The translations under genes and the position numbers were made by a program. Shown piece by piece: positions 10,679 to 25,225 of a stretch of DNA of 64,000 bases; positions within the stretch are counted from its first letter, which is position 1, and each line of letters opens with the position of its first letter. The stretch covers positions 8,424 to 72,423 of the forward strand of contig JAYEOW010000040.1 of assembly GCA_034723395.1 (NCBI GenBank), in the 5' to 3' direction. The DNA comes from Candidatus Margulisiibacteriota bacterium. GTDB taxonomy: Bacteria; Margulisbacteria; WOR-1; O2-12-FULL-45-9. Under the pieces are notes generated by a model that was not told the origin of the DNA, did not search any database, and was given only the letters and a program-made list of their open reading frames with translations.

Positions 10679-10805
10679 TAAAGATAGTTATCGAAGGATC
10701 AGGATGCTGGAAAGAATATTAATAAATGAGAATTCAGATGAAGTTAAGAGACTTTTAGCGATGGTTGGGTTGATGCAGTTTGCTTTAAGGAAGAACGAAT
10801 TATAG
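10656..10805 (+). CDS. Small hypothetical protein (49 aa)
   Basis: ATG with GAGGA SD; MKKCYQYNKDSYRRIRMLE...RKNEL; fills the gap to the convergent gene. Confidence 0.4.
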   Translation: MKKCYQYNKDSYRRIRMLERILINENSDEVKRLLAMVGLMQFALRKNEL

Positions 10806-12146
10806 CTTTATCTTCTCCCCATGTACGATCTTGTTAATCACAAGGCCGGAGAGAAGCTTGGGATAGAAATAAGTCGACTTATGGGGCATTTTTTCGAGCT
10901 TGCTGGCGATCGAGGTGATCTCTTCGAGCTTGGTCGGATTTAGCAAAAAGGCGACCTGATAATCGTGATTATCAACCCGATCGATTGCCTCTTCGAGTGC
11001 TTTAACATATGAGACCTTATCTTCGGTTTCGTTAGCAATTCCAAGGATACGATCAAATACCGCATAGTGAAGAACCGTTACATCGAGGTTTTTCCATGCT
11101 TTCGGCTTTTCCTCCTCGACCATCTCTTCTACAACGTATTCATCTTTTAAGGTCAACAGGTAATATTTGTTATTCCCGAGATACATGCCATAAGCGTGTT
11201 GATCGAGACCTTTCTTTGTTAGATCTTTTAATAGTTTCTTCTGCACCCTTTTTGCAGATGTTTTGGTCGCCTTGTATAATTTCACGTCAAAGAAGCGTTC
11301 GAGCTCTTTTTCAAAACGGTTCGGATCAAAATAGGGTAGATTGTACAGCACCCGATGGATTGGGAGCACGGCTAAACCTTTGTCCTCGATAGGGGTAAAA
11401 TACATCAATATGTGATTATAAGCTTCTTCTTCGGAGAATTTGGTGTTTTTTGTCTTTAGTTCATTCTTAAAACGGAGGGCTGCTTCATAGCGATGGTGGC
11501 CGTCGGCGATAAAGACAGTCTTGTCGCGCATTTCTTTAATGATCTTGGTGATAGCGGGTTTCTTGTCTATTTTCCAGAGGCGGTGTTTTACTTTATCTTT
11601 ATCTTTATCTGTTACATCAATCAGCGGTTTTCTTCGCATGTATTTCTTGAAAATCTTTAAAAGTTTACTTTTTGGATCGCTATAGACCGAGAAGATCGAC
11701 TCAAGATTTGAGGAGGTTGTCCGCATCAGCTGGAGCCGGTCGAGCTTTGCCCGGGAATAAGTCTCTTCATGAGGAAATACCTTGCCGCGTCCCATATCTT
11801 CGAGCCTTAAGAGGGCGAAAAATCCGAGCCGGGTAAACTTTTTACCTTCTAGGCTAAAGCGCTGTTCGTAAATATAAAAAGAGGGTTTTTCATCCTTTAT
11901 CAGGATGCGGTGGCGGAGCCATCCTTCAAGAAAAGCGGCCGAGCGGATATATTTGTTATTATATTCCCCATCACTGGAAAATTCTTTGCCCAGGATAAGC
12001 CGGATGAAATTGAAATCGTGCAGATTATAAAAATCCTCCTGCATTTTATCATCGATAACATCATAGGGTGGGGTAAAAAGATTGTCGAGCTTTTTAAATT
12101 TACCTTTATTATAAAGAATTCCTTCGAAAGGAAATAATTTAACCAT
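10800..12146 (-). CDS. DUF1015 family protein
   Basis: PPYDVI, PHEET, IADGHHRYE, KSTYFYPKL.SGL. Confidence 0.9.
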   Translation of the reverse strand: MVKLFPFEGILYNKGKFKKLDNLFTPPYDVIDDKMQEDFYNLHDFNFIRLILGKEFSSDGEYNNKYIRSAAFLEGWLRHRILIKDEKPSFYIYEQRFSLEGKKFTRLGFFALLRLEDMGRGKVFPHEETYSRAKLDRLQLMRTTSSNLESIFSVYSDPKSKLLKIFKKYMRRKPLIDVTDKDKDKVKHRLWKIDKKPAITKIIKEMRDKTVFIADGHHRYEAALRFKNELKTKNTKFSEEEAYNHILMYFTPIEDKGLAVLPIHRVLYNLPYFDPNRFEKELERFFDVKLYKATKTSAKRVQKKLLKDLTKKGLDQHAYGMYLGNNKYYLLTLKDEYVVEEMVEEEKPKAWKNLDVTVLHYAVFDRILGIANETEDKVSYVKALEEAIDRVDNHDYQVAFLLNPTKLEEITSIASKLEKMPHKSTYFYPKLLSGLVINKIVHGEKIKL

Positions 12147-12203
12147 GGCGATCGCATTATAACATCACTTTAATTTCGCGTCAAATTTGCTATAATACGG
12201 CAG

Positions 12204-14513: not shown

Positions 14514-14873
14514 GGCGCGGTTGACTAGATCGTATATAACTTCCATCATAAAAGGTTTGCTGACGTATTCCATGGCTCCTAATTCGACTGCCCGGACCTT
14601 GCTTTTTTCCGAAGCGTAGCCGGTAACGATGCAGCATTCGGTCGAAGGGCTTAATTCCTTTATCTTTGCCAGAATATCCAATCCGATATCGCGGCCGTTA
14701 AAGCGGAGATCGATAAAGGCGATATCAAATTTATCTTTCTGGACGGCAGAGGCGGCGTCTTCGAGGTTCATAGCCGTCTTGACCGCATACTCCTTTACCT
14801 CAAGGATCATTTTTAGCGATTCGAGGACCGCTAATTCGTCGTCAACTACCAGGCAATTTGTTTTATCGGCCAT
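14493..14873 (-). CDS. Single-domain response regulator (CheY-like)
   Basis: VVDDE, FIDL, VTGY, YVSKPF. Confidence 0.92.
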   Translation of the reverse strand: MADKTNCLVVDDELAVLESLKMILEVKEYAVKTAMNLEDAASAVQKDKFDIAFIDLRFNGRDIGLDILAKIKELSPSTECCIVTGYASEKSKVRAVELGAMEYVSKPFMMEVIYDLVNRALERKRK

Positions 14874-14883
14874 TGGTCTCTCC

Positions 14884-15096
14884 TTATTTTTTCGATAACA
14901 GAAGCTCGAACACGTTTATCTGTTCGATGACCATGCGGCCTCCGTCAGGGCCGGGTTGGGTCAGTTCTATTTTAAACTGCCAGAGCCAAATTACAACCCC
15001 CACCAGTATAGCAAAAACGGCCAGGGTTGCGATCTCGACGATTCGGGCCTGCCTGGCCATCTCCTGCTGGGTTATCGCTTTAAATATATTTTTCAT
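14884..15096 (-). CDS. Small single-pass membrane protein
   Basis: One hydrophobic helix; start overlaps the ABC gene stop (ATGA). Confidence 0.7.
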   Translation of the reverse strand: MKNIFKAITQQEMARQARIVEIATLAVFAILVGVVIWLWQFKIELTQPGPDGGRMVIEQINVFELLLSKK

Positions 15097-16832
15097 TCTT
15101 CACCTGCATGCGCTTGATAGAATTTGTAGAATTCGCCCTTCTTTTCGAGCAGCTTTTCGAACGTCCCTTGTTCCGTTATCCGGTTCTTGTGGATCACGTA
15201 GATCTTATCCGCGTTCTTAAGGGTGGGGATGCGATGAGAGATTATGATCACCGTCTTATCTTTGCAGCGCCTTTTTAGATTTTCATAAACCTTGGCTTCG
15301 ACCAAGCTGTCGAGGGCGGAGGTCGCTTCGTCCAATACCAGGATCTTTACGTCGCGGTAGAGGGCGCGGGCGATTGCCAGCCTTTGCTCCTGCCCGCCCG
15401 AGAGGCCGATCCCCCCTTCGCCGATCCGGGTATCGTAGCCATTGGCGCAGCCCATGATAAAATCGTGGATCTCCGCGTCCTTGGCGGCCTGGACCATGTT
15501 CTTTTCGTTTATCTCTTTGCATCCGTACTGGAGGTTCTCGCGGATCGTCCCCGAAAAAATTATCACATCCTGGGAGACGATCGAGATATAGGCGCGGAGG
15601 GTCATCAGCGAGACCTGTTTGAGGTCGTATTTATCGACATAGATGTGGCCTTCGCTCGGATCTAAAAAGCGGAGGATCAGATCGAGGATCGTGCTTTTTC
15701 CGGCGCCGCTCGCTCCGGCTACCGCGGTGATCTGCCCCGGATTCGCGGTGAGGCTGATGTTTTTCAGAATATACTCTTTCGTATCCGCGTAGTGGAAGCT
15801 GACTTTATCGAATTTGATCTTCCCTTCGATATAATAAAGGACAAAGGTTTTAACGTCCTGGTAAGCTTCGGGCTCAACGTCCATGATCTCGTTGACGCGG
15901 GTGATCGAGACAAAACTGCGCGCCAGTGATTTATATACTTCGCCGAAATCCATAAAGGGCTGGTGGATCTGCCCCAGGTAGACCAGTATCGCCATGATCT
16001 CTCCAATCGTGATATGGCCGGTGATCACGCGGTAGCCGGCATACCAGGCGATAAAGCTGGTCCAGAGGGTAATCATAGTCGAGTCGAGAAAGCTGTTGAA
16101 CAGGCCGGTAAACAGATTTTCCCGCACCAGCATAAAGACCGATCTTAGTTTATCGATCAGCCTCCCGGTTTCATAAACTTCCTGGTTAAAGGATTTGATC
16201 GTCTTAATGTTGCCCATCTTTTCCTGATAAAAGGAATAGATCTCCGATTCTCTTTTTTGGGATTTTTCCTGGATATCCTCAAAGCGTTCGGCAAAGATCC
16301 TGGTCTCGATAAAATAGAGCGGGATGCCGAGCAGGGCGAGGAGGGTGAGATTCCAGTCGATCATGATGCAGATGATAAATAAGGCGATCAGCTGCAGGGC
16401 GGTCTTGACCAGGACCGGGATCGTTTCGGCCACTGTATCCACGATTACGTCAATGTCGTCAGTTACCCTTACCATCATATCGCCCACCTGTTTTTCCTTA
16501 TGCACGCTCATCGGCAGGCGGAGGACGCGGGTAAAGAATTTCTGGCGCAGGTCGATCGAGAGGGTCTGGTGGATAAAGGTGTCGAGGTAGCTGGTTATGC
16601 CGGAGAAAAAGGTATCAAAGAGAAAGATCACGATGCCAAAGAGGACCAAGAAGGTCAATAAGTAGAGATCCCGGTTTGGATAAGCGTAATCGATCAAAAT
16701 TTTTGTGATCAGCGGGGCGGCCATGCTAAAGATGACCGAGAGGCCGACCGCCAGCAGGGACAGTGAGCTTTTATCCCAATAGGGGAGGAGGAGCTTAAAA
16801 TAGCTTCCGAAGATCTTCAACCTTTCATGCAT
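15093..16832 (-). CDS. ABC exporter, fused TMD-NBD (no peptidase domain)
   Basis: N-terminal TM domain, GASGAGKS, LSGGQ, VLDEATSALD, SHR. Confidence 0.95.
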   Translation of the reverse strand: MHERLKIFGSYFKLLLPYWDKSSLSLLAVGLSVIFSMAAPLITKILIDYAYPNRDLYLLTFLVLFGIVIFLFDTFFSGITSYLDTFIHQTLSIDLRQKFFTRVLRLPMSVHKEKQVGDMMVRVTDDIDVIVDTVAETIPVLVKTALQLIALFIICIMIDWNLTLLALLGIPLYFIETRIFAERFEDIQEKSQKRESEIYSFYQEKMGNIKTIKSFNQEVYETGRLIDKLRSVFMLVRENLFTGLFNSFLDSTMITLWTSFIAWYAGYRVITGHITIGEIMAILVYLGQIHQPFMDFGEVYKSLARSFVSITRVNEIMDVEPEAYQDVKTFVLYYIEGKIKFDKVSFHYADTKEYILKNISLTANPGQITAVAGASGAGKSTILDLILRFLDPSEGHIYVDKYDLKQVSLMTLRAYISIVSQDVIIFSGTIRENLQYGCKEINEKNMVQAAKDAEIHDFIMGCANGYDTRIGEGGIGLSGGQEQRLAIARALYRDVKILVLDEATSALDSLVEAKVYENLKRRCKDKTVIIISHRIPTLKNADKIYVIHKNRITEQGTFEKLLEKKGEFYKFYQAHAGEE

Positions 16833-16909
16833 TAATTATAGTATATAACTTGAAGAAGAATCGGGCAAGCTGACGGATTTATGATATAATACTTGTGGAG
16901 GTGTTTATT

Positions 16910-17077
16910 ATGGCAATGAGTAAAAGACACAGCAAAAGCAGCAGGCTTTCAGGTATTAAAAAGACACGAGCAAAACCAAAGATACAAATGGATGATGATT
17001 TGACCCGAACATTTATAAAGAAAACTGAAGGGAAACTACAAAAAAGAGTGCCGGGAACAAAATGGAAAGTGGCTTGA
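16910..17077 (+). CDS. 55-aa Lys/Arg-rich peptide A (candidate radical-SAM substrate)
   Basis: Extended -10 TGATATAAT (16882-16890), SD GGAGGT, ATG 16910; directly upstream of a radical SAM gene. Confidence 0.7.
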   Translation: MAMSKRHSKSSRLSGIKKTRAKPKIQMDDDLTRTFIKKTEGKLQKRVPGTKWKVA

Positions 17078-17094
17078 TAATATAGCTGTATTTT

Positions 17095-18745
17095 ATGCAA
17101 AAAAAAATGTCCCGCACCTAAGCAGTACCACCGTGCTCTGGCTAAAGAAATTATTAGTAATTTATCCTCCCTTATTGAGCTTGATTATTTATCTAAGCGC
17201 GATTCTTCCCCCGATTCATGTGAGATAATTTATCAGCCGGAATTTCTTTATCGAACCGCCGACCCAAGGATTGATTTTATTAAACGCCTTTTAGAAATCA
17301 CTTTCTCTGATTCCGATCTCCCGACTAATCCGTCATCTTTTAGTTTGAAGCGCCTTAAGGACTGGATGGTCGGAATTACAGCTGACGATCTTATTGAACA
17401 GATGAGCTGGGCGTGCAAAGCGGATTGTGTTTTTTGTTATCAGAAAGGGAGCCCCCCTTTTATGCGCGTGAAGATGCGCATGTCTAAGGAAGAGATCAAG
17501 ACACGGCTTAAGTATTATAATGGGAAAAAGGGGCTTACATGGTGTACTCCTTATGAAAATGACGAAGTGTTGAACAATCCATTCATTGAGAATGTGCTGA
17601 AGCAGATCCGGCGAAAAGACAAAGAGATGCTGCGGATCATTACTAATGGGGTCGCTCTTACGCCACAAATGATCGCCAAACTAAAAAAAGCTATGCCGCT
17701 ATTCATTGACATATCGCTAAACAGCACAAATCCTGAGATACGCAGAAAATTGATGCGTGACTCATCCCCGGAAATCGCGATCCAGAGCATCCCCTTGCTT
17801 AGAAAGCACAAAATTCCTTTTGTAGTTAAGATCGTTGCTTGGCCGGGAGTCCCCTTTTCAGATATTGAAAAAACGATCAAGTATGCAGATAAATACGATG
17901 CTTTCCGCGTAGAAATTGGAAGCCCGGGAGTAACGCGTTACCTTCCGGATGTTTCTTTTGATTATAAGCGGCACTGGAAGAGGGTAGTTAAGTTTGTGAA
18001 TTCAATAAAGCGGAAATATAACATACCTATTGTGTCTGATATTTATATTGATAAGAATAATTATAGACGGTGGGATATTCCAGTTGTACAGGGAACCATA
18101 AAGCATTCACCGGCCTATACTCATGGAGTTAAGCCCGGAGACGTTATTGAAGAAGTGAATGGACAGCTTGTGGATTCCCTTTTCGGGGTTTTTAGGGAAT
18201 TGTTGAAGCGGCGGAAGGCGCGGTTAAAGATTCGCCGCGGCGGTAAAACTTTATTTTTTAACCTAAAAGAGAAAAAAAAGTATCCGTATCTATTTGACGG
18301 TCAAAGGATGCGGGGCCCTTTCGGGATAAGATTTAAATTAGCCAAAGAACTCATGCTTTCGGATGACGACATCATTGATATTAAGCGATTTGCTAACATT
18401 CATCGGGCGAAAAGAGTATTAGTTTTAACCTCGGCCAGGGCCTATTTCTTGATCAAATATAAGATGGAGAAGTTGAAACTTTTTAAAAGTAGTAATGCCC
18501 GGATAAAACTGGCGATCGCTGAAAATAAAATGTACGGCGGTAACACCAAGTGCGCGAATTTACTGGTGGTAGATGATTATATTCATGCCGTGAAAAAGCA
18601 CAAGAAGGAATTTAAGCCGGACCTGGTGGTTATTCCTTCGAGCCCCTTTAATGCCTGGGAGCGGGATGTGGTGGGGCGGGTGAACCTCGATATCGAGAGA
18701 GAGACAAAGGTCCCCGTAGAGTTTGTTTACAACGAAATACTCTAA
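17095..18745 (+). CDS. Radical SAM protein with PDZ-like and C-terminal DUF512-like domains; 5' end irregular
   Basis: CKADCVFC, TNG, GVKPGDVIEEVNG (PDZ-like), N..YGGN....LLVVDD (DUF512-like). Frame open from 17081; ATG 17095 is offset by one base at an A9 run; first in-frame canonical start is TTG 17345. Confidence 0.85.
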
Positions 18746-18982
18746 TTACTTATAAAGCTTATTGATCTTCACGCTATCCAAAAAATGAAACCCATCCACC
18801 TTCACGTCTTCTCCCTTATAAGTCAGTGCCACAATATCCATGGTTTCTTTTAGCAGGTCTTTGACGAAATCTTTAAAAGGATCCTTGCTGCGCCGTTTCT
18901 TTTTGGGGATATCCAGCTTCCAGCGTAGAATAAAGTCGCCGTTTTCGTCAAGGTTAGGATTCGTTTGTTTTTTATTTTTCAT
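18746..18982 (-). CDS. 78-aa protein, possibly the isolated N-terminal piece of a paralogous radical SAM gene
   Basis: SD AAGGAG and ATG 18982; DPFKDFVKDLLKET resembles DPRIDFIKRLLEIT in the N-terminal extension of 17095-18745. Confidence 0.55.
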   Translation of the reverse strand: MKNKKQTNPNLDENGDFILRWKLDIPKKKRRSKDPFKDFVKDLLKETMDIVALTYKGEDVKVDGFHFLDSVKINKLYK

Positions 18983-18995
18983 GATGTTTCTCCTT

Positions 18996-19577
18996 TTACG
19001 ATAAAGGTTCAACCCGACTATTATAAACAAATTCAACCGGAATGCCTATTTCGCGTTCGATGTCCAGATTATTTCTGCCGATTATATCTCTGCCCCACAA
19101 GTTAAAAGGAGAGGAGGGAAGAATGATCAGGTCTGGATTGAACTTTTTGGCAGCTTGTTTTATATTCCGAATGAAATCTTCAACGACCAGAAGGTCCCCC
19201 GAGTTGATAGTCCCTCCGAAAAAATAGTTCTTTGCCGAGATCACACGCAGGTTAAGCTGGTATTTTTTTAAAGTGTGTTTTATTAAGGGAGCCACTCTCG
19301 GCGCGGCGTCAATATTATTAATGAGAAAATCTCTAATTGTTTTTAATTCACTGTTTTTGTATTTCCTATTTATCTTTTTTGTTGATTGTAAATAATATAT
19401 CCTTTTTATATATTTTGAAATATTTTCTGGTCTTAGGACATAATAAAAAAACTCAAGGCCAAGGTTTTCTTGAACTACGTCAACTTTATGCTTGTGTAAA
19501 TATGCATAAAGCTTTGCAGTTCCCAATGGTAGATTAAAAGATAAACTACCCGGTGGGGTAAGAAGTAAAATATCCAT
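18996..19577 (-). pseudogene. Chimeric ORF: start of a B12-binding radical SAM protein joined to a DUF512-like C-terminus
   Basis: MDILLLTPP....LPLG.A.L.AYL start; C-terminal about 100 aa clearly paralogous to the C-terminus of 17095-18745 (PDL...PSSPFN.W.RD..GR.NLDIERE...PVEFVYN); no CxxxCxxC. Confidence 0.7.
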
Positions 19578-19710
19578 TATATTACCAGTAATAATATCAT
19601 AGGCGGGTTTGTTTATGAAATTGCGGAAAAGTTATGTGATGAATAATGAAGCAGAATATGCGGGTCGTGGAGCCCTCCCCAACATCAAAAAGCCCCTGAA
19701 AGTGTGCTTT

Positions 19711-20715
19711 TTATTCAATAAAACACAAAGCGGAGCGATTTAAATTATTTGGAATTTTATATGGATCCTTAAAAAGGACGCACTGGGCGTTATCTGGAGC
19801 AAAAAAGGTGTTGTGTAGTTCATAGGTCCTTTGCTTGCAGCCGCCAAGACATTTTTTATTGGCTTTACAGTAGTGACATTCACTAATATTATTTGAGGTT
19901 GATCTTCTTATTTCTTTCATGACCGGATGGTTTTTAAATATTTTTGTAAAATTATCTTTTCTTATATTTCCCATAACCTTATTTCTCATCGGCATGCAGG
20001 GGACGATATCGCCGTTAAACAATATCGCGATAAATTCATAGCCAACGCCGCATGCGGTTCCCCTTGCTCTAGATGTTATATCTAATCCTTCCGGTTCGGA
20101 TATTTTGTGCATACAATCTTTATAATCTTTTAGCTTGGGGTAGAGTTTTTTCCCCGCTTTTCCGCTGGGATTTATCAGGCTTATCCCGGCGGTAATATTG
20201 AAATGCTGGCAAAAATCGACAATATCCTGGATTTCTTTAACGTTATTTTTCATAACAATTGTTCTGACCACAACGTTAAAGCCTTGTTTTTTACATAGTA
20301 AAATCGCGTCTATTGCTTTTTTAAACGAACCCTTTTTGCCTCTGATAGCATCATGTGTTTTAGCATTAGCTCCGTCGAGGCTAATTTGAATGGTATCGAT
20401 GTTAATTTTTTTAAATCTTTCAATTGCCCGCTTATCAACTAGTGTGCCATTGGTCAAAAGATGGATTTGCAGCCCCTTCTGTGAAGCGTAGGCGGCAATT
20501 TTGTAAAAACGGGGATGTAAAAGAGGCTCTCCGCCGGATAAAATCACTTTTTTGGCCTTGTTCTTTGCTGTGGTGTCGAGAATATTAAATATTTCTTTTA
20601 AGGATAATTCTTTTGAAAATAAACTGCCATCCGCAAAGCAATGTATGCAATTTAAATTGCACCGTTTAGTTATTTCTAAATATAGCGAATCTAAATGCAA
20701 AAGATTATTGCTCAA
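19711..20715 (-). CDS. Radical SAM/SPASM domain protein
   Basis: CNLNCIHC, SGGEPLL, QISLDG; SPASM cysteines CGVG...GDIVPC...CHYC.....C.GGC...C. Confidence 0.93.
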   Translation of the reverse strand: MSNNLLHLDSLYLEITKRCNLNCIHCFADGSLFSKELSLKEIFNILDTTAKNKAKKVILSGGEPLLHPRFYKIAAYASQKGLQIHLLTNGTLVDKRAIERFKKINIDTIQISLDGANAKTHDAIRGKKGSFKKAIDAILLCKKQGFNVVVRTIVMKNNVKEIQDIVDFCQHFNITAGISLINPSGKAGKKLYPKLKDYKDCMHKISEPEGLDITSRARGTACGVGYEFIAILFNGDIVPCMPMRNKVMGNIRKDNFTKIFKNHPVMKEIRRSTSNNISECHYCKANKKCLGGCKQRTYELHNTFFAPDNAQCVLFKDPYKIPNNLNRSALCFIE

Positions 20716-20743
20716 GAGATTAGGTCTTTTTAGCTGGTCAATC

Positions 20744-20911
20744 CTAGTCGGCGATCATCCCAGGGAATATTTTCTTTCTTGTTCTCATTCCAGGAGAGGC
20801 CTTTAATTTTTTTATCTCTTTGAGAATTTTGGTTGTGCTTGAGGATACTTCGGTCCGGACCTCTTTTTTGATGAGTTTCTTTAAGTCTGATAATTTTAGG
20901 GTTTCTTTCAT
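20744..20911 (-). CDS. 55-aa Lys-rich peptide B (candidate SPASM substrate)
   Basis: Hand translation MKETLKLSDLKKLIKKEVRTEVSSSTTKILKEIKKLKASPGMRTRKKIFPGMIAD; SD AAGGGGG; TTGCTT-17-TATACT promoter; not in the ORF track. Confidence 0.7.
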   Translation of the reverse strand: MKETLKLSDLKKLIKKEVRTEVSSSTTKILKEIKKLKASPGMRTRKKIFPGMIAD

Positions 20912-21008
20912 GCTTAATAACCCCCTTTTTTTGTAGTATACATCAACCTTTCTTCCGAAGCAATACGTCTTTTTATTTTGTAGGATGTTTTATGATAACA
21001 TAAAAAAT

Positions 21009-21137
21009 GTGACAGCAATAAACAACCCCCAACAAAAACTCTGTTCCGACATCAAAAAGTTCCTGGATGTCTACAAGGTCCTTTCCGCCGACGGCAAAGC
21101 CCAGTTCGAAGCCCAGATGGCGGGAGAGGTTTATTAA
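21009..21137 (+). repeat. Copy 1: truncated 5' half of the 24120-24338 gene (42-aa ORF)
   Basis: GTG...NNPQQKLCSDIKKFLDVYKVLSADGKAQFEAQMAGEVY*. Confidence 0.9.
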
Positions 21138-21212
21138 CTTGACATTTTTGATGGCTTTTGTTAATGTACATCTGTCAAACAGGACAAAATTGTCTTATTT
21201 GGAGGATGATTT

Positions 21213-22013
21213 ATGCTTAAAGATGAGTTAACCGCTAAAGCGCATGAGGAGGGCCTGCCGCTAAAAATCCTTGAAAAAGAGGCTTTGCAAATTTACATTT
21301 TAAGCGAGTTGTTCGCTCTGCCGGAATCGACCCGGCTGACTTTCCAGGGCGGGACCTGCCTGCGCCTGGTCTATAACGGGGCGCGTTACTCAGAAGACCT
21401 GGATTTTGTAACCTCTGCTGACAACAATAATATCGATCAGATCATCAATAATTTGTCCAAAGCGCTTGTCCGGCTGGAGCCGCTCTTCGGCGGGGAAATT
21501 ATTACAAAAAAGCAAAAGGTATCTCCCACTTTTTGCCGCTTCAGAATTCATAACCGGAAAGAAAATATTCACGAATCTTTTTTTGTCAGCCTGGAATTTG
21601 GCCGGTATCCGGCTTATACCTTAAATGTCGTTCCCTTGCGTCCGCAAAAAAAGCTTCCGGGATTGCCGCTGACCCTGGTCCGAGCGGAAAAGCCCGAAGA
21701 GATCCTGGCCGACAAATTGTGCGCTATTGCCGGCCGGCCCTTTTGCAAAGGGCGCGATTATTTTGATCTTTGGCTGTTAAAGCAGCAGGGGATTACGCTT
21801 GACACAAACTTGCTGGGGAAAAAGCTTAAAGATTATTCTATCCCCGCGGATAACCTGGCTCGCGGACTTAACCTTGCTTCAGCCAAAAGCATTAAAAATG
21901 AGATGGAAAGATTTTTGCCGTTAAAATACCGGCGCCAGTTCGAAAACGACGGCTATGCCGGCCTGCTGCAACAAGCCCGGTCAATCATTGAAGAGGGGCT
22001 GCAAGCGCTATGA
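21213..22013 (+). CDS. abiEii: AbiEii-family nucleotidyltransferase toxin (type IV TA)
   Basis: FQGGTCLRLVY...RYSEDLDF, EILADKL.A, KGRDYFDLW. Confidence 0.92.
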   Translation: MLKDELTAKAHEEGLPLKILEKEALQIYILSELFALPESTRLTFQGGTCLRLVYNGARYSEDLDFVTSADNNNIDQIINNLSKALVRLEPLFGGEIITKKQKVSPTFCRFRIHNRKENIHESFFVSLEFGRYPAYTLNVVPLRPQKKLPGLPLTLVRAEKPEEILADKLCAIAGRPFCKGRDYFDLWLLKQQGITLDTNLLGKKLKDYSIPADNLARGLNLASAKSIKNEMERFLPLKYRRQFENDGYAGLLQQARSIIEEGLQAL

Positions 22014-22603
22014 AAAAATATTTTACCTTCTCCTCCTGGCTGACGCTCCTGCAAAAACTGGGCAGGGAAAATCAAAAGATCCTCTCCCCCCGGACCCTGC
22101 AAAGGGCCAGCGGATTGGGCAGCCAGGCGATCTCAAAAGCCATTCAGCGCCTGGTCCGGCGCGGGGACCTGATCAAACTTTATAAAGGGGCCTACGCCAA
22201 TAAATATTCTCCGCCTTCGCTTGAAGAAGTGGCCATGTTTTACGGCAAGCCCTGTTATATTTCTTTTGAGAGCGCGCTGGAAGATCGGGGCATTATCTCG
22301 CAGGCGCCGCAGGTGCTTACCTGCGCGGCCACGCGCAAGCTAAAAAAATTAAAGACGCCGCTGGGTGAGATCGTATTCCATAGGATCCACCCGCGCTTAT
22401 TTAGTAGTTTCGAAAATGATAAGGGGATTCTCCGCGCCACCGCCGAGAAGGCTTTTCTGGATTATTTATATATCAATCTCAAAAATGAAAAACAGATCCC
22501 TGCGCTGGACGAGTTTGACATGGGGCAATTAGATAACAAGAAGACTAAAAAGCTGGCAAAGATCTTTCCCCAAAGCGTCAGGCGCCGCCTACTTTTGGTC
22601 TAA
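22010..22603 (+). CDS. AbiEi-like antitoxin / transcriptional regulator
   Basis: N-terminal HTH-like region, L.KG.Y, YISFESAL...GII.Q, ATAEKAFLDYLY; ATGA-coupled to the toxin. Confidence 0.85.
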   Translation: MKKYFTFSSWLTLLQKLGRENQKILSPRTLQRASGLGSQAISKAIQRLVRRGDLIKLYKGAYANKYSPPSLEEVAMFYGKPCYISFESALEDRGIISQAPQVLTCAATRKLKKLKTPLGEIVFHRIHPRLFSSFENDKGILRATAEKAFLDYLYINLKNEKQIPALDEFDMGQLDNKKTKKLAKIFPQSVRRRLLLV

Positions 22604-22631
22604 CGGCTCATTTTATGCTAAAATTCAACCG

Positions 22632-22793
22632 ATGACTGAGCAAAACCCGCAAGAAAAACTTCTAAACGATGTAAAACACTTCCTCGAGGTCTACAAAGTC
22701 CTTTCCCCCGATGGCAAAGCCCAATTCGAAGGCCAAATGGCCGGGTCGGTTTATGCTATTAAAATGTTCATTGACAATGAAGACTATATATGA
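22632..22793 (+). repeat. Copy 2: truncated 5' half of the 24120-24338 gene (53-aa ORF; homology ends near 22750)
   Basis: MTEQNPQEKLLNDVKHFLEVYKVLSPDGKAQFEGQMAGSVY then an unrelated tail. Confidence 0.9.
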
Positions 22794-22827
22794 TAAGTTT
22801 TCATTAGCAGTGAATGGAGGTGGATTT

Positions 22828-24096
22828 ATGGATAGAGCATTATTAAAAGAGATAGTTTTAGAGCAACGGGAAGTTATAAAAAATAAGGATCTGGGGATAG
22901 AAAGGGAAAAGCTTGATTTAATTGAAGGATCTATAAAGCTTCCACACGCTATCGTTATTTCCGGGATCAGGCGCGTGGGGAAGTCAACCCTGCTTGCCCA
23001 AATTATGAGTAAATTCTATAAATATGATGCTTATTATCTTAACTTTGAGGATGAGCGTTTAATGGACTTTAAGGTTTCGGATTTTAATACCCTTTATGAG
23101 ATATTTGTGGAGCTTTTTGGGGAAAAACAGGTTTTTTTCTTTGATGAAATTCAAAATGTGAAGGAGTGGGAGGCGTTTGTCCGGCGTATGTATGACCGGA
23201 AATTTAAGTTTTTTATTACCGGCTCAAATGCCTCGCTTTTAAGTAAAGAACTGGGGACTAAATTGACGGGAAGATTTGTGCCGGTCGAGCTTTTTCCCTT
23301 TTCGTTCAGGGAATATATGAGATTTAAAAAATATTCTTTACCTGATAAGGCTCTCATGCTTACTAAAGAAAGAGGAAAGATAAAACGCTTTTTTAATGGA
23401 TACTTAAAAGAGGGGGGGATGCCGGAATATCTAAAATATAAGGACCTGGATATTTTAAGGAGAATTTATGATGATATATTATATCGTGATGTTGTTGCCA
23501 GATATAGGATTAAGGAGATAAAAAATCTCAGGGAAATGTCCCTTTATTTTTTGAGTAATCTTTCTGCTTTGTTTTCTTATAATAAACTTAAACAGTATCT
23601 TAATTTGGGGAGCATAAATACAGTAAAGAGTTTTGCTGAGTATCTTCAAAATACCTATATTCTTTTTGTGATAAATATTTTTTCCTTTTCTTTAAAACAA
23701 CAGTTTATTGCGCCAAAGAAAATATATTGTGTGGATAATGCCCTGGCGAACGCAATTGCCTTTAAATTTTCGGAAAATAGGGGTAAGTTTTTGGAAAATG
23801 TTGTATTTGTAGAGCTTAAGAGAAGGGGCTCTGAAATTTATTATCATAAAACTGCTAAAGGACTTGAGGTTGATTTTCTGGTAAAAAAGGGAAGAAAGGT
23901 TGAGAAGCTAATTCAGGTAACCCTGGGGATGGGGAAAACCGGCGTTAAGGAGCGGGAATTAAACGCGCTTCTTTCGGCGTTGGAAGAACTTGATGTGAAA
24001 GAGGGGATGATTTTGACGGAAGAAGAGGAAAAAGAAATTAAATTAGGCGGAAAGAAGATAACTGTTAAGCCGGTATATAAATGGCTGTTAGAGTAA
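22828..24096 (+). CDS. AAA+ ATPase (AAA_14) with DUF4143/nuclease-like C-terminus
   Basis: SD GGAGGT and ATG 22828; GIRRVGKST, FFDEIQ, TGSNASLL, GGMPE, KKIY.VD, EN.V, EVDF, IQV; AT-rich. Confidence 0.9.
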   Translation: MDRALLKEIVLEQREVIKNKDLGIEREKLDLIEGSIKLPHAIVISGIRRVGKSTLLAQIMSKFYKYDAYYLNFEDERLMDFKVSDFNTLYEIFVELFGEKQVFFFDEIQNVKEWEAFVRRMYDRKFKFFITGSNASLLSKELGTKLTGRFVPVELFPFSFREYMRFKKYSLPDKALMLTKERGKIKRFFNGYLKEGGMPEYLKYKDLDILRRIYDDILYRDVVARYRIKEIKNLREMSLYFLSNLSALFSYNKLKQYLNLGSINTVKSFAEYLQNTYILFVINIFSFSLKQQFIAPKKIYCVDNALANAIAFKFSENRGKFLENVVFVELKRRGSEIYYHKTAKGLEVDFLVKKGRKVEKLIQVTLGMGKTGVKERELNALLSALEELDVKEGMILTEEEEKEIKLGGKKITVKPVYKWLLE

Positions 24097-24119
24097 GTAT
24101 TATAGGGGAAGATAGTATA

Positions 24120-24338
24120 ATGAATAACCCACAACAAAGACTTTTAAACGATGTAAAAAAGTTCTTAGAGGTCTACAAAGTTCTCTCTCCGGATGGCAAA
24201 GCGCAATTCGAAGGCCAGATGGCGGGATCAATAAAGGACCAGGACGATAAGACCAGGAAGTTATATCATGCTCTTCTGCAAGCGGCCAAAGACGGCAAAG
24301 ATGTAGAAGCTGCTATCCAGGAGATGGGGAAGGGCTAA
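24120..24338 (+). CDS. 72-aa hypothetical protein, the complete copy (copy 3) of the repeated gene
   Basis: MNNPQQRLLNDVKKFLEVYKVLSPDGKAQFEGQMAGSIKDQDDKTRKLYHALLQAAKDG...; converges on parB. Confidence 0.85.
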   Translation: MNNPQQRLLNDVKKFLEVYKVLSPDGKAQFEGQMAGSIKDQDDKTRKLYHALLQAAKDGKDVEAAIQEMGKG

Positions 24339-25225
24339 ACCCGGGATAACGTCTTTTTCCCGCGGAAGATAATTTCTAGTACCCGTTCGAGGTCCTCTTT
24401 GCTGAAGTAATTGATCTCGATCCGCCCTTTTTGCGGAGTCCCCAGTATTTTTACTTTTGTTCCGAGAAATGTTGTTAATCTTTCAACCAGGGCGTTTAAT
24501 TCCGCATTTTTTGTAAAAGCGCGTTTGCGTCCGCCTTTCCTGGCTTTTTGTTTTTCACTTTTTCCAGAAACTAAAATTTCCACGTCGCGAACATTTAATT
24601 TGCTGGAGATGATCTGTTTCCAGGCTTCAAGCTGTTTTAGCTGGTCAGAAATCGCCAAAAGCGCCCGCGCGTGCCCAACACTAATTTCTTCTTTGCGGAG
24701 ACTTTGTTTGATCTTATCCGGTAAAGTAAGGACGCGAAGCATATTGGTAACGGTGGACCTGTTCTTCCCCACCTTTTTAGCGACTTGTTCCTGAGTGATC
24801 TTAAATTCTTTGATCAGGAGGGCGTAACCCTCGGCTTCATCCATCGGATTGAGGTCTTCGCGCTGGAGATTTTCGATCAAGGCGATCTCGAGCGATTGCT
24901 CGTCGGTAAAATCCTTTATGATTGACGGGACCAGGGTGAGCCCGGCAAGTTTAGCCGCTCTCCACCTGCGTTCACCGGCGACCAGTTCGTATCTCCCTGC
25001 CCGCATCCGGGTCAGGATCGGTTCGATCACTCCCTGCTCTTTGATCGAATCCGAAAGTTCTTTTAATGCATCCTTGGGAAATTCGGTCCTTGGCTGACGC
25101 GGATTTGGATATATTTTACCGATATCGATATTTACGATCGTCCTCCCGCCGGCAAAGATCGCCTTCTTTGGGATCAGCGCGCTCAATCCTTTACCCAAAC
25201 CTCTTTTTTTAGAATTGTCCATCAT
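24335..25225 (-). CDS. parB: Chromosome partitioning protein ParB
   Basis: GLGKGLSALI, NPRQPR, AGERRWRA, ENLQREDLNP, HTH. Confidence 0.97.
   Translation of the reverse strand: MMDNSKKRGLGKGLSALIPKKAIFAGGRTIVNIDIGKIYPNPRQPRTEFPKDALKELSDSIKEQGVIEPILTRMRAGRYELVAGERRWRAAKLAGLTLVPSIIKDFTDEQSLEIALIENLQREDLNPMDEAEGYALLIKEFKITQEQVAKKVGKNRSTVTNMLRVLTLPDKIKQSLRKEEISVGHARALLAISDQLKQLEAWKQIISSKLNVRDVEILVSGKSEKQKARKGGRKRAFTKNAELNALVERLTTFLGTKVKILGTPQKGRIEINYFSKEDLERVLEIIFRGKKTLSRV

What the first reader, a model, noticed from the sequence alone, without database searches (positions are those of the whole stretch)
20990..24338. Cassette array built into a small gene: repeated 5' halves cut at a fixed codon alternate with defence cargo
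Seen: three direct, diverged copies of the same ~110-bp coding segment (NPQ.KL..D.K.FL.VYKVLS.DGKAQFE.QMAG) at 21009, 22632 and 24120. Most differences are synonymous, so the copies look like alleles from different donors rather than a fresh duplication. Copies 1 and 2 lose homology at the same codon, just after QMAG-x; only copy 3 carries the 3' half. Order: half-gene, AbiE TA, half-gene, AAA-DUF4143, full gene, then convergent parB. Inference: modules of the form [cargo + replacement 5' half] insert repeatedly at one site inside this 72-aa gene, restoring it each time and stacking defence genes. That would be an integron-like accretion system whose recombination site is protein-coding sequence. 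No integrase or transposase is visible in the window, so it would act in trans or by homologous recombination. I do not recognise this as a described system.
Basis: partly seen in the sequence, partly recalled or inferred. Interest (0 to 1): 0.9.

Follow-up and report, generated by a model that had tools for sequence, protein, structure and literature searches.

The report
Stacked half-gene repeats holding defence genes
A small conserved gene beside parB has its promoter and first 38 codons repeated three times head to tail, with a toxin-antitoxin pair and a candidate defence ATPase sitting between the repeats, most likely built by ordinary recombination rather than by a dedicated integrase.

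Summary
There are three direct copies of about 110 nt (21021-21131, 22641-22751, 24123-24233). Only the third continues into the full 72-aa gene. They differ like alleles of different lineages: dS 0.9-1.7, dN/dS 0.07-0.14. An independent assembly of the source run spans the array, and a roughly 94%-identical relative in another study carries junction 2. New point: each truncated copy is followed by the gene's own -10 promoter box. TTTATGCTA occurs only at 22612 and 22750, 138 nt apart. Removing the AbiE insert, which is flanked by TTTAT, restores the same junction. So the array is a head-to-tail repeat of [promoter + 38 codons], with cargo inserted into the promoter copies. No recombinase lies in the window, module ends have no hairpins, and synonymous sites at the break vary freely. 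No second copy was found in 145 other genomes of the phylum (45 carry the gene) or in 17 metagenome loci. Flanking target duplications are common around the same ATPase family (PDC-S01) and around other small accessory genes at many other targets. Best reading (about 0.5): a duplication scaffold colonised by compact defence units, then exchanged and stacked by homologous recombination. This is a new variant of known displacement arrays, not an integron.

The parts
10800..12146 (-). DUF1015 gene. In relatives it is the usual divergent upstream neighbour of the small gene, so 12147-20984 is extra island DNA in this genome.
   Evidence: Pfam DUF1015 2e-91. Its homolog lies directly upstream of the small gene in 17 of 28 related loci.
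20985..21137 (+). Unit 1: a degenerate native-like promoter (TTTTATGATAA...AAAAAT) followed by truncated copy 1 of the first 38 codons (homology 21021-21131). The canonical start codon is ATA. The ORF ends ...QMAGEVY*.
21130..21134 (+). Junction 1: TTTAT, the first bases of the next unit's -10 box, overlapping Val38 GTT. It is the left copy of a 5-nt direct repeat around the AbiE insert; the right copy is at 22612-22616.
   Evidence: read directly
21135..22611 (+). AbiE unit: -35 TTGACA at 21139-21144, a GACAAAATTGTC operator, AbiEii 21213-22013 and AbiEi 22010-22603.
   Evidence: Pfam and PADLOC. The 8 homologous units elsewhere share homology only from the -35 box to the stop codon.
22612..22751 (+). 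Unit 2: native -10 box TTTATGCTAAAAT (22612-22624), a 7-nt leader, ATG at 22632, and truncated copy 2 through Val38 (GTT 22749-22751).
22750..22765 (+). Junction 2: promoter fragment TTTATGCTATTAAAAT, 138 nt after the same 9-mer at 22612. It is the start of unit 3, interrupted by the ATPase unit.
   Evidence: TTTATGCTA occurs only twice in the 64 kb, against 0.62 expected. The native promoter is seen in relatives.
22766..24096 (+). PDC-S01 unit: palindromic operator/promoter GTTCATTGACAATGAAG followed by the AAA_14 + DUF4143 (PD-(D/E)XK) gene at 22825-24096. GC is 32-39%, against 43-50% in the flanking DNA.
24120..24338 (+). Intact 72-aa gene (copy 3 plus the 3' half). The model is a four-helix protein of unknown function, and the break point lies at the end of helix 2.
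24335..25225 (-). parB, the convergent conserved neighbour. ParA, RsmG, BamA and TamB follow it.
   Evidence: 20 of 20 related loci

Best explanation
The locus is a head-to-tail array of three units, each made of [the gene's own -10 promoter box + leader + first 38 codons] of a conserved single-copy four-helix gene beside parB. Only the last unit continues into the rest of the gene. The common junction fuses Val38 GTT to TTTATGCTA of the promoter. It is the scar of one illegitimate tandem duplication of a 138-nt unit. The duplicated promoter copies ahead of a still complete gene are harmless landing places. Two compact promoter-to-stop accessory units landed there: an AbiE toxin-antitoxin pair, with a 5-nt TTTAT duplication, and a PDC-S01 ATPase-nuclease gene. 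Once flanked by direct repeats of a conserved coding segment, [junction + cargo + one 5' half] can be moved by RecA-type homologous recombination alone. It can loop out and re-enter a single-copy allele by one crossover (Campbell type or ends-in). It can be swapped by double crossover. It can be stacked by unequal crossover between alleles that carry different cargo. This explains why the junction is identical by descent while the 5' halves look like alleles of different lineages. What is shown: the anatomy, the promoter-fragment junctions, the allele-like divergence, the presence of module 2 without module 1 in a relative, and the lack of a local recombinase. What is inferred: the order of events, the loop-out and re-entry route, and transfer between lineages.
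For: 1. Both breaks are the same head-to-tail fusion. TTTATGCTA occurs only at 22612 and 22750 in the window. The native -10 box TTTATGCTAAAAT or tGTGCTAAAAT lies 7-12 nt before the ATG in relatives. Deleting 21135-22616 recreates the junction-2 sequence at junction 1. 2. The cargo inserts start 5 and 16 nt beyond the junction, so duplication and insertion were separate events. 3. The copies are diverged with few replacement changes: dS 1.06, 1.70 and 0.90; dN/dS 0.14, 0.07 and 0.07. The allele of another genome (L043) is as close (0.79-0.83) as the copies are to each other. 4. In runs X2 and X4 of another study, a relative has copy 2, junction, ATPase and copy 3. A 62-nt unitig at twice the depth shows that copies 2 and 3 share an identical stretch there, which fits gene conversion. 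Upstream of copy 2 the sequence is unlike the window. Identity is about 94% over 22713-24187, against 86-87% for 22644-22708 and 24195-24997. 5. No recombinase or transposase was found in the window ORFs scanned. The genome holds only two Xer-like recombinases, one integrase-AAA fusion and one large serine recombinase, all on other contigs. 6. The same kind of flanking duplication is common and does not depend on the cargo. It is seen in 16 of 51 PDC-S01 genes of the phylum (11 non-palindromic), each at a different target. The background is 19 of 1387 genes in this genome and 3 of 245 in relatives' loci. It is also seen in 3 of 8 tested 23S-IVS-protein genes and 3 of 5 tested AAA_14 genes in this genome. 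7. ComEC, DprA and ComM are encoded.
Against: No empty scaffold (two units without cargo) was seen anywhere. No other array at this gene was found in 145 other genomes of the phylum (45 of them carry the gene) or in 17 metagenome loci. No other truncated ORF like copy 2 exists among 5.8 billion proteins: 6 hits, and the only truncated one is the window's own. The model therefore rests on one genome plus one relative. A test for mosaic structure among the three copies was not significant (p = 0.69). The 94% versus 87% identity step could reflect different constraint on the ATPase gene and parB rather than transfer, and its position is fixed by unitig breaks. Contigs cannot show circles or excision products, and none was seen. 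If the junction is old, the truncated copies should have decayed. Their intact frames require either recent inter-lineage exchange or repeated gene conversion, and both are inferred. Competence genes are also present in many bacteria not known to be transformable (controls).
Confidence: 0.5

Rival explanations
1. Dedicated site-specific cassette system. A recombinase acting in trans recognises a site at codons 34-39 and inserts circular [cargo + 5' half] cassettes, as an integron does.
For: Two different cargos share the same break point and the same following bases. All modules are co-oriented and the gene is restored each time. Three tyrosine recombinases and one large serine recombinase exist elsewhere in the genome.
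Against: The shared bases are the gene's own promoter box, so they are explained by a duplication junction. The inserts begin 5 and 16 nt after the junction, not at it. There are no inverted repeats or hairpins at module ends: inverted flank scores are 18-23, at background. Synonymous sites around QMAG vary freely in 11 alleles. The heptamer is mutated in the 94% relative. No recombinase is adjacent. The same cargo families sit at other loci with other flanks or none.
Confidence: 0.12
2. Two independent one-sided captures (homology-facilitated illegitimate recombination). Each time, incoming DNA from another lineage carried cargo lying in the small gene's promoter plus the gene itself. It anchored homologously in the gene, and its free end joined illegitimately inside the resident copy, displacing the resident 5' half.
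For: This directly explains half-copies that look like functional alleles of other lineages and promoter fragments at the left ends of the incoming DNA. The mechanism has been proposed for T6SS effector-immunity arrays (PMC5361080, passages read). Variable-length duplications at many targets around PDC-S01 genes fit it.
Against: It needs the illegitimate joint to fall twice at the same 2-3 nt in both donor and recipient. The microhomology there is only TT or GTT, so recurrence is improbable.
Confidence: 0.15
3. The PDC-S01 ATPase-nuclease gene is an autonomous one-gene mobile element whose insertion makes long, variable target duplications. Under this reading the array is its footprint, and the AbiE unit was inserted later or mobilised in trans.
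For: 16 of 51 family members in the phylum and 8 of 73 tested in other phyla, including archaea, have direct repeats abutting the promoter and the stop codon. This compares with about 1.4% of all genes. The protein joins an AAA ATPase to a PD-(D/E)XK nuclease with invariant E/D residues. Homologs at 40-64% identity are scattered over many phyla and both domains.
Against: In this locus the insert's left end lies 16 nt beyond the duplication junction, so the duplication is not a simple target-site duplication of this insert. The AbiE unit, which has no such enzyme, has the same arrangement. 23S-IVS-protein genes show flank repeats at a similar rate, 3 of 8 tested. No conserved terminal sequences were found. 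Repeats are 84-97% identical rather than identical.
Confidence: 0.12
4. In-situ triplication with the truncated units kept by selection. The 38-residue two-helix peptides would be made from their own promoters and have a function, for example regulating the cargo or the full protein.
For: Frames are intact over 38 codons in both truncated copies, with low dN/dS. The break falls at the end of helix 2 of the model. Unit 2 keeps an intact -10 box and ATG.
Against: Copy 1 has lost its start codon (ATA). Copy 2 differs from the relative's copy at 9 of 65 positions, against about 6% in the ATPase gene, which suggests relaxed constraint. No truncated homolog exists elsewhere.
Confidence: 0.05
5. Strain-chimera assembly artefact.
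For: The genome is a metagenome bin in 55 contigs. The locus is variable between strains.
Against: The copies share no exact word long enough to mislead an assembler; the longest shared runs are about 14 nt. A second assembler's 17,291-nt contig from the probable source run is identical across 20400-25000. Junction 2 is bridged in another study's run.
Confidence: 0.02

Closest known systems
Displacement (orphan) arrays: Rhs C-terminal displacement, orphan cdiA-CT/cdiI modules, and sequential displacement of T6SS effector-immunity pairs in Vibrio cholerae (PMC5361080; abstract and passages read. The Rhs and CDI papers are known to me only as cited there).
   Same: A conserved gene segment is repeated. 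Each repeat is followed by different horizontally acquired cargo. The copies resemble alleles of other strains rather than each other. The build-up is attributed to homologous plus illegitimate recombination, without an integrase.
   Different: In those arrays the conserved segment belongs to the toxin gene itself, the 3' variable end is displaced, and the leftovers lie downstream. Here the promoter plus 5' end of an unrelated small housekeeping-like gene is displaced upstream. The cargo is unrelated defence genes with their own promoters. The junction is a tandem-duplication junction.
Integrative elements that restore their target gene (phage 21 and e14 in icd; tRNA-targeting islands; tandem accretion of integrase-less elements such as CIMEs and tycheposon satellites).
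   Same: There is a partial duplicate of the target gene with synonymous differences on one side of the insert, the gene stays intact, and tandem stacking is possible.
   Different: Those elements use a tyrosine or serine integrase and a defined att core. Here there is no integrase, no conserved core at the DNA level, and a promoter fragment at the junction.
Integron cassette arrays
   Same: Co-oriented single-function cassettes accumulate at one place.
   Different: There is no IntI, no attI or attC hairpins, and the cassettes have their own promoters. See the membership test.
Transformation-triggered tandem duplication by alternative pairing of repeats (Johnston et al. 2013, PMC3784515; abstract read)
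   Same: A donor fragment carrying a sequence repeated in the recipient produces a duplication by unequal crossover between chromatids. This is a tested route by which repeat-flanked DNA can be added without special enzymes.
   Different: That work was done with IS-derived repeats and duplications of 100-900 kb in Streptococcus pneumoniae. Here the repeats are about 110 nt and the modules about 1.5 kb, and transformation is not shown for this organism.
AbiE type IV toxin-antitoxin system and PADLOC candidate PDC-S01
   Same: The cargo genes match these families: AbiEii 2e-41, AbiEi 5e-26 and PDC-S01 1e-112.
   Different: The gene order is AbiEii then AbiEi. PDC-S01 is an unvalidated candidate (PMC12988326, passages read). 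Flanking target duplications were not mentioned in the passages I read.

Membership tests
Integron | IntI-type tyrosine recombinase next to the array | tested here: not met
   No Phage_integrase hit among the window ORFs scanned. The 3 genomic hits are on contigs C28, C29 and C50.
Integron | attC sites: imperfect palindromes at cassette ends | tested here: not met
   No inverted repeat at module ends. Inverted flank scores are 18-23, equal to background.
Integron | Mostly promoterless cassettes read from a common promoter Pc | tested here: not met
   Both units carry their own TTGACA -35 box and a family-conserved operator. This rests on sequence reading only; no expression data were examined.
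Integrase-driven island that restores its target gene | Integrase in or beside the element, and an identical att core at both ends | tested here: not met
   There is no integrase. The repeats are 77-84% identical and no stretch is conserved at synonymous sites.
Displacement / orphan arrays built by recombination | Repeated conserved segment followed by differing acquired cargo | tested here: met
Displacement / orphan arrays built by recombination | Repeats resemble alleles of other genomes, not fresh duplicates | tested here: met
   dS 0.9-1.7 and dN/dS 0.07-0.14. The L043 allele is as near as the sister copies.
Displacement / orphan arrays built by recombination | Array content varies among close relatives | tested here: inconclusive
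   One relative (runs X2 and X4) has module 2 and unlike sequence upstream, but only contigs were seen and the upstream content is unknown. No other close relative was available.
AbiE (type IV toxin-antitoxin / abortive infection) | AbiEii nucleotidyltransferase plus AbiEi wHTH antitoxin as an adjacent pair | tested here: met
   Pfam AbiEii 95.8 bits, over the cut-off. AbiEi_4 scores 23.8 bits, just under the cut-off of 25. PADLOC gives AbiEii 2e-41 and AbiEi 5e-26. The two genes overlap by 4 nt.
PDC-S01 (candidate defence) | Single gene with an AAA_14 ATPase and a DUF4143 PD-(D/E)XK domain | tested here: met
   Pfam 3e-38 and 9e-20. PADLOC PDLC04787 1e-112 over 401 of 412 model positions. Walker A and B residues and E348/D350 are invariant in 20 sequences. 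Defence activity could not be tested.
Xer-dependent modules (IMEX, pdif modules) | 28-bp dif-like sites bounding each module | tested here: inconclusive
   By eye, no XerC-arm/spacer/XerD-arm arrangement is present at the junctions. The dif consensus was recalled and no formal search was run.

The most novel reading that the evidence does not exclude
In these small genomes, and perhaps widely, compact defence and selfish genes (PDC-S01, AbiE, 23S-IVS-type proteins) may spread as integrase-free cassettes. A unit that becomes bracketed by a duplicated piece of a conserved host gene is turned into a module. RecA alone can then loop it out, re-insert it into any relative carrying that gene, and stack it. 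Any conserved coding segment can thus serve as an attachment site, and gene accretion works like an integron without an integron. A bolder variant is that the PDC-S01 ATPase-nuclease itself makes the long target duplications.
Probability: 0.22. Interest if true: 0.85.

Novelty: new variant of a known kind. Interest (0 to 1): 0.6.

Why it matters
If the recombination reading holds, defence genes can accumulate at a fixed chromosomal address without any dedicated mobile-element machinery. All that is needed is a chance duplication of a conserved gene's promoter and 5' end. That would be a simple, general route to defence islands in streamlined, uncultured bacteria. It would also explain why PDC-S01, reported as the fourth most common 'defence' gene in prokaryotes (PMC12988326), is scattered across phyla and so often bracketed by duplicated target sequence. 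In this survey that was 16 of 51 loci in the phylum and 8 of 73 tested elsewhere, against about 1.4% of all genes. It gives annotators a practical signature: an orphan gene-end fragment beside a compact promoter-to-stop unit. It also gives a testable model, namely RecA-dependent loop-out and re-entry.

Tried and rejected
1. RiPP leader idea. A radical SAM/SPASM gene lies upstream and the N-terminal half is conserved. I dropped this because the 72-aa gene is a single-copy syntenic neighbour of parB in 20 of 20 loci, whatever lies upstream.

2. DGR-like template and variable repeats. There is no reverse transcriptase, and the differences are not adenine-specific.

3. Function of the small protein. 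Pfam gives only DUF7366 at 17 bits, under the cut-off. NCBIfam and PADLOC give nothing. The AF2 model is good (pLDDT 89.7), but Foldseek against the PDB gives no hit at E <= 0.001. The ESM Atlas gives no usable hit.

4. Mosaic or recombination break among the three copies: not significant, p = 0.69.

5. Conserved terminal motifs or inverted repeats at the ends of the PDC-S01 or AbiE units: none found.

6. AbiE units elsewhere. Only 1 of 8 (L110) has a borderline 27-nt abutting repeat, score 29. The other 7 have none.

7. Plasmid vehicle. Only 8 plasmid records hold distant homologs of the ATPase, at 30-36% identity.

8. Excision, circle or empty-site forms in reads. Only contigs were available and no joint across a module was seen. 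This says nothing either way.

9. Runs X3, X5 and X6 held little or none of the stretch.

10. Literature. 'DUF4143' gives 4 papers, 'COG1373' 8, 'PF13173/PF13635' 3 and 'PDC-S01' 7. In the listings and the passages I read, none describes flanking repeats or mobility of this gene. Supplements were not opened.

Full report
OBSERVATION

The window is G000:C40:8424-72423 of a 1.68-Mb, 55-contig genome bin that is 97% complete. Names attached to homologous proteins place it in Candidatus Margulisiibacteriota/Saganbacteria. The repeat finder reports one outstanding direct family: 104 nt at 21024-21127, 22644-22747 and 24126-24229, with 76% and 85% identity to the middle copy and spacings of 1620 and 1482. 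tblastn of the 72-aa product of 24120-24338 over the whole genome finds only these three places, covering residues 1-72, 2-38 and 1-39.

Copies 1 and 2 are truncated ORFs (20985-21137...QMAGEVY*; 22632-22793...QMAGSVYAIKMFIDNEDYI*). Copy 3 is the full gene, convergent with parB. Between the copies lie AbiEii/AbiEi (21213-22603) and an AAA_14 + DUF4143 gene (22825-24096). The latter is PADLOC candidate PDC-S01 (E 1e-112).

IS IT REAL DNA?

The copies share no exact run longer than about 14 nt, so an assembler could not have joined strains through them. A Logan contig of 17,291 nt from run X1, probably the source sample, covers 20400-25000 without a single difference. In run X2, from another study, a 1,475-nt contig spans 22713-24187. 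That is the end of copy 2, the junction, the ATPase gene and the start of copy 3, with 92 differences, about 94% identity. The half-copy/cargo/full-copy arrangement therefore exists in a second population.

THE GENE AND ITS NEIGHBOURHOOD

The 72-aa gene is found in 46 of 146 genomes of the phylum, all in one class. It occurs once in each of the 45 others. In 20 of 20 fetched loci it lies on the 3' side of parB, convergent, behind TamB-BamA-RsmG-ParA-ParB. It is within 100 nt of parB in 14 of them. All 17 JGI metagenome loci also have a single copy, and parB is visible beside it in 16.

The upstream side is variable:
- In 17 of 28 loci the neighbour is a divergent DUF1015 gene.
- In 5 loci a three-gene operon ending in a Ser/Thr kinase runs into the small gene with a gap of about 24 nt.
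- In the others it is something else.

In the window the DUF1015 gene is at 10800-12146, so about 12 kb (12147-24119) has accumulated between the ancestral neighbours.

The protein models confidently as four helices (pLDDT 89.7; H4-21, H24-38, H43-58, H62-71). It has no informative match in Pfam, NCBIfam, PADLOC, PDB folds or the ESM Atlas. Its function remains unknown. The break falls at the end of helix 2.

THE COPIES ARE ALLELE-LIKE

Over 34 shared codons, Nei-Gojobori estimates are as follows:
- dS 1.06, 1.70 and 0.90 for copy pairs 1-2, 1-3 and 2-3.
- dN/dS 0.14, 0.07 and 0.07 for the same pairs.
- Nucleotide identities 0.775, 0.775 and 0.843.

The allele of another genome (L043) is as near to each copy (0.79-0.83) as the copies are to each other. 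Fresh duplicates that decayed in place would show mostly replacement changes. These do not. Each copy must have been part of a working gene until fairly recently, or have been overwritten from one.

WHAT THE BREAK POINT IS

Homology to the gene runs two codons beyond QMAG, to Val38 (GTT). The bases that follow are TAT|TAACTTGACA... at junction 1 and TATGCTATTAAAAT|GTTCATTGACA... at junction 2.

In relatives, the gene's own promoter carries an extended -10 box 7-12 nt before the ATG. It reads TTTATGCTAAAAT in L045 and L046 and upstream of copy 2 at 22612-22624, and tGTGCTAAAAT in others. The 9-mer TTTATGCTA occurs exactly twice in the 64-kb window, at 22612 and at 22750, 138 nt apart, where 0.62 occurrences are expected. 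Junction 2 is therefore the end of one [promoter + 38 codons] unit fused to the start of the next.

At junction 1 only TTTAT remains before the AbiE unit. The AbiE unit is followed by TTTATGCTAAAAT, so it is bracketed by a 5-nt TTTAT repeat (21130-21134 and 22612-22616). Removing it recreates the same fusion.

The array is thus three head-to-tail units with one common junction. The cargo was inserted 5 nt (AbiE) and 16 nt (ATPase) into the promoter copies of units 2 and 3. This accounts for the 'fixed codon' and the shared GGTTTAT without any recombination site.

EVIDENCE AGAINST A DEDICATED SITE-SPECIFIC SYSTEM

- Pfam scans of the window's ORFs found no recombinase or transposase.
- The genome has two Xer-like recombinases, one integrase-AAA fusion inside a defence island on C50, and one large serine recombinase on C4. 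None is linked to the array.
- Module ends carry no inverted repeats.
- Third-codon positions around QMAG vary freely in 11 alleles (GCC/GCG/GCA/GCT; GGG/GGT/GGC/GGA).
- In the 94% relative the heptamer already reads GGTTCA-, and the promoter fragment has further changes.
- No other truncated ORF of this kind is present among 5.8 billion proteins. The search gave 6 hits, and the only truncated one is the window's own.

THE CARGO UNITS ARE COMPACT AND FOUND ELSEWHERE

The AbiE pair has homologs at 65-79% identity in 8 genomes of several families, each at a different locus. Homology begins at the -35 box (CTTGAC), includes a GACAATATTGTC operator, and ends at the stop codon.

The ATPase family is very patchy. 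It is found in 43 of 146 genomes at E <= 1e-20, with up to 9 copies per genome. Homologs at 40-64% identity occur in Patescibacteria, Omnitrophota, Bacteroidales, Chlamydiae, Bathyarchaeota, Nanoarchaeota and others. Many members share a palindromic operator/promoter, GTTTTCATTGACAATGAAAAC. The unit has 32-39% GC, against 43-50% around it.

A WIDER PATTERN

I compared 500 nt upstream with 500 nt downstream of 51 ATPase genes, drawn from 50 of the 110 places listed. Seventeen have a direct-repeat score of 30 or more. Mismatched-pair controls (n = 201) give a median of 20, a 95th percentile of 25 and a maximum of 68.

In 16 of the 51, the upstream copy ends within 150 nt of the start and the downstream copy begins within 60 nt of the stop. 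Five of those 16 are palindromic hairpin repeats, which are a different thing. The other 11, including the window itself, are duplicated target sequence of 15-104 nt at 84-97% identity. The targets differ:
- the 3' end of proA (L062);
- the first 8 codons of argG (L100);
- a SEC-C C-terminus (L101);
- intergenic DNA (L067).

The background is 19 of 1387 ORFs in this genome (1.4%) and 3 of 245 in relatives' loci. The top hits in that background are themselves an ATPase gene and a 23S-IVS-protein gene. In 73 testable loci (of 80) from other phyla, 12 score 30 or more and 8 abut the gene. In this genome, 3 of 8 testable IVS-protein genes and 3 of 5 testable AAA_14 genes show the repeats. AbiE units elsewhere mostly do not: 1 borderline case of 8.

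The pattern is thus not tied to one enzyme. It looks like a general way in which small accessory units sit in these genomes.

MECHANISM

My best reading has confidence of about 0.5.

- One illegitimate tandem duplication produced [promoter-38 codons | promoter-full gene].
- The promoter copy in front of a still complete gene is a harmless landing place, and compact units landed there.
- After that, the flanking direct repeats of a conserved coding segment let RecA-type recombination do the rest. [Junction + cargo + one 5' half] can loop out, re-enter a single-copy allele in a relative by one crossover, be exchanged by double crossover, or be stacked by unequal crossover between alleles with different cargo.
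- This keeps the junction identical by descent while mixing 5' halves of different lineages.

Several observations support it. In X2 a 62-nt unitig at twice the depth (58 against 23-28) shows that copies 2 and 3 share an identical stretch, which fits gene conversion. X2 and X4 have unlike sequence upstream of copy 2, so module 1 is absent or different there. Identity is about 94% across 22713-24187 but 86-87% in 22644-22708 and 24195-24997. That step is about one period long and both its ends lie in the repeats, as a single-crossover insertion predicts. However, the positions are set by unitig breaks, and unequal constraint could also explain the step. ComEC, DprA and ComM are encoded, which is weak support for DNA uptake.

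Rivals:
- Two independent one-sided captures. This explains the allele-like copies directly but needs the same 2-3-nt joint twice (0.15).
- A dedicated site-specific system (0.12).
- Self-mobility of the ATPase-nuclease with long target duplications (0.12).
- Selected truncated peptides (0.05).
- Assembly artefact (0.02).

COMPARISON WITH KNOWN SYSTEMS

It works most like the displacement arrays of Rhs, CdiA and T6SS effector-immunity loci. [quoted passage not shown] Transformation-made duplications through alternative pairing of repeats are an experimental precedent for the unequal-crossover step (PMC3784515, abstract).

It fails every tested defining feature of an integron and of an integrase-borne island. 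It differs from the displacement arrays in four ways. The promoter and 5' end, not the 3' end, is repeated. The anchoring gene is unrelated to the cargo. The cargo units bring their own promoters. The junction is a tandem-duplication scar.

DUF4143 is listed as a PD-(D/E)XK domain of unknown function (PMC3424549). PDC-S01 is described as very common, unvalidated and often transferred between domains (PMC12988326). In the listings and passages I read, I found no description of flanking duplications.

VERDICT

The array is genuine and unusual, and it is best filed as a new variant of recombination-built displacement arrays. The promoter-fragment junction and the widespread flank duplications around PDC-S01 and other small units are the new points. 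The main weakness is sampling: one genome and one relative seen only as contigs. Interest 0.6.

Noticed in passing
Loci L062, L064, L065, L067, L072, L088, L094, L099, L100, L101; also L039:13204-14427: PDC-S01 (AAA_14-DUF4143) genes in other genomes of the phylum are bracketed by duplicated target sequence of 15-98 nt that abuts the promoter and the stop codon. Each is at a different target: the proA 3' end, the argG start, a SEC-C C-terminus, or intergenic DNA. In 73 tested loci from other phyla, including archaea, 8 show the same.
   Followed up: partly
L075, L076, L077, L079, L086 (one family of the phylum): Here the ATPase genes are flanked by near-identical palindromic repeats of about 45 nt (GCCATTAGTAATGGC...GCCATTACTAATGGC). 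These look like REP-type or hairpin elements rather than target duplications.
   Followed up: no
Window 22766-22790; L062, L064, L065 upstream regions: A conserved palindromic operator overlaps the -35 box of PDC-S01 genes (GTTTTCATTGACAATGAAAAC), which suggests autoregulation. AbiE units share a GACAATATTGTC palindrome next to the ribosome-binding site.
   Followed up: partly
G000 contigs: C31:6368-6715, C15:4671-5030, C7:99391-99762, C20:21104-22378, C43:4843-6165, C53:4394-5431, C7:37305-38330, C6:8446-8913: Other small accessory genes of this genome are also flanked by direct repeats of 33-67 nt, several of them perfect. By sequence motifs recalled from memory these genes look HepT-like, 23S-IVS-type, further AAA ATPases, SIR2-like and Dcm. 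Not all were checked by Pfam.
   Followed up: partly
G000:C12:512-859: A 115-aa ORF with a GIY-YIG-like motif (recalled) sits between two 413-nt direct repeats that begin with tRNA-like sequence.
   Followed up: no
Window 17345-20911: The island upstream of the array holds a radical SAM-PDZ-DUF512 gene (17345-18745). It also holds a truncated fragment of a second such gene on the other strand (18996-19577) and a radical SAM/SPASM maturase-like gene (19711-20715). A 55-aa ORF follows at 20744-20911 and may be a peptide precursor. L045 has two intact copies of the first gene and the 96-aa ORF.
   Followed up: partly
L028, L039, L040, L041, L043: In some relatives genes have been inserted on the other side, between the small gene and parB. 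These are a CitMHS transporter, a P-type ATPase, or PGI plus a two-component pair. Both flanks of the small gene are therefore plastic.
   Followed up: no
G000:C50:12736-14211 (L198:3736-5211): An unusual fusion of an N-terminal tyrosine-recombinase domain with an AAA ATPase (491 aa). It lies in a defence island with OLD-TOPRIM/UvrD (Gabija-like), Vsr, an EcoO109I-type endonuclease and a C5 methylase.
   Followed up: no
L062:1286-1421 and 2773-2878: The proA-side duplication is permuted. Left of the ATPase the order is the proA 3' end, then the first 10 codons of a nadD-like gene. Right of it, 18 nt of that start are fused to the proA 3' end through a shared ATTGGCATC. This hints at microhomology-mediated joining.
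   Followed up: no
Window 45037-49229: Two tandem full-length anaerobic ribonucleotide reductase (NrdD) paralogs lie behind NrdR.
   Followed up: no
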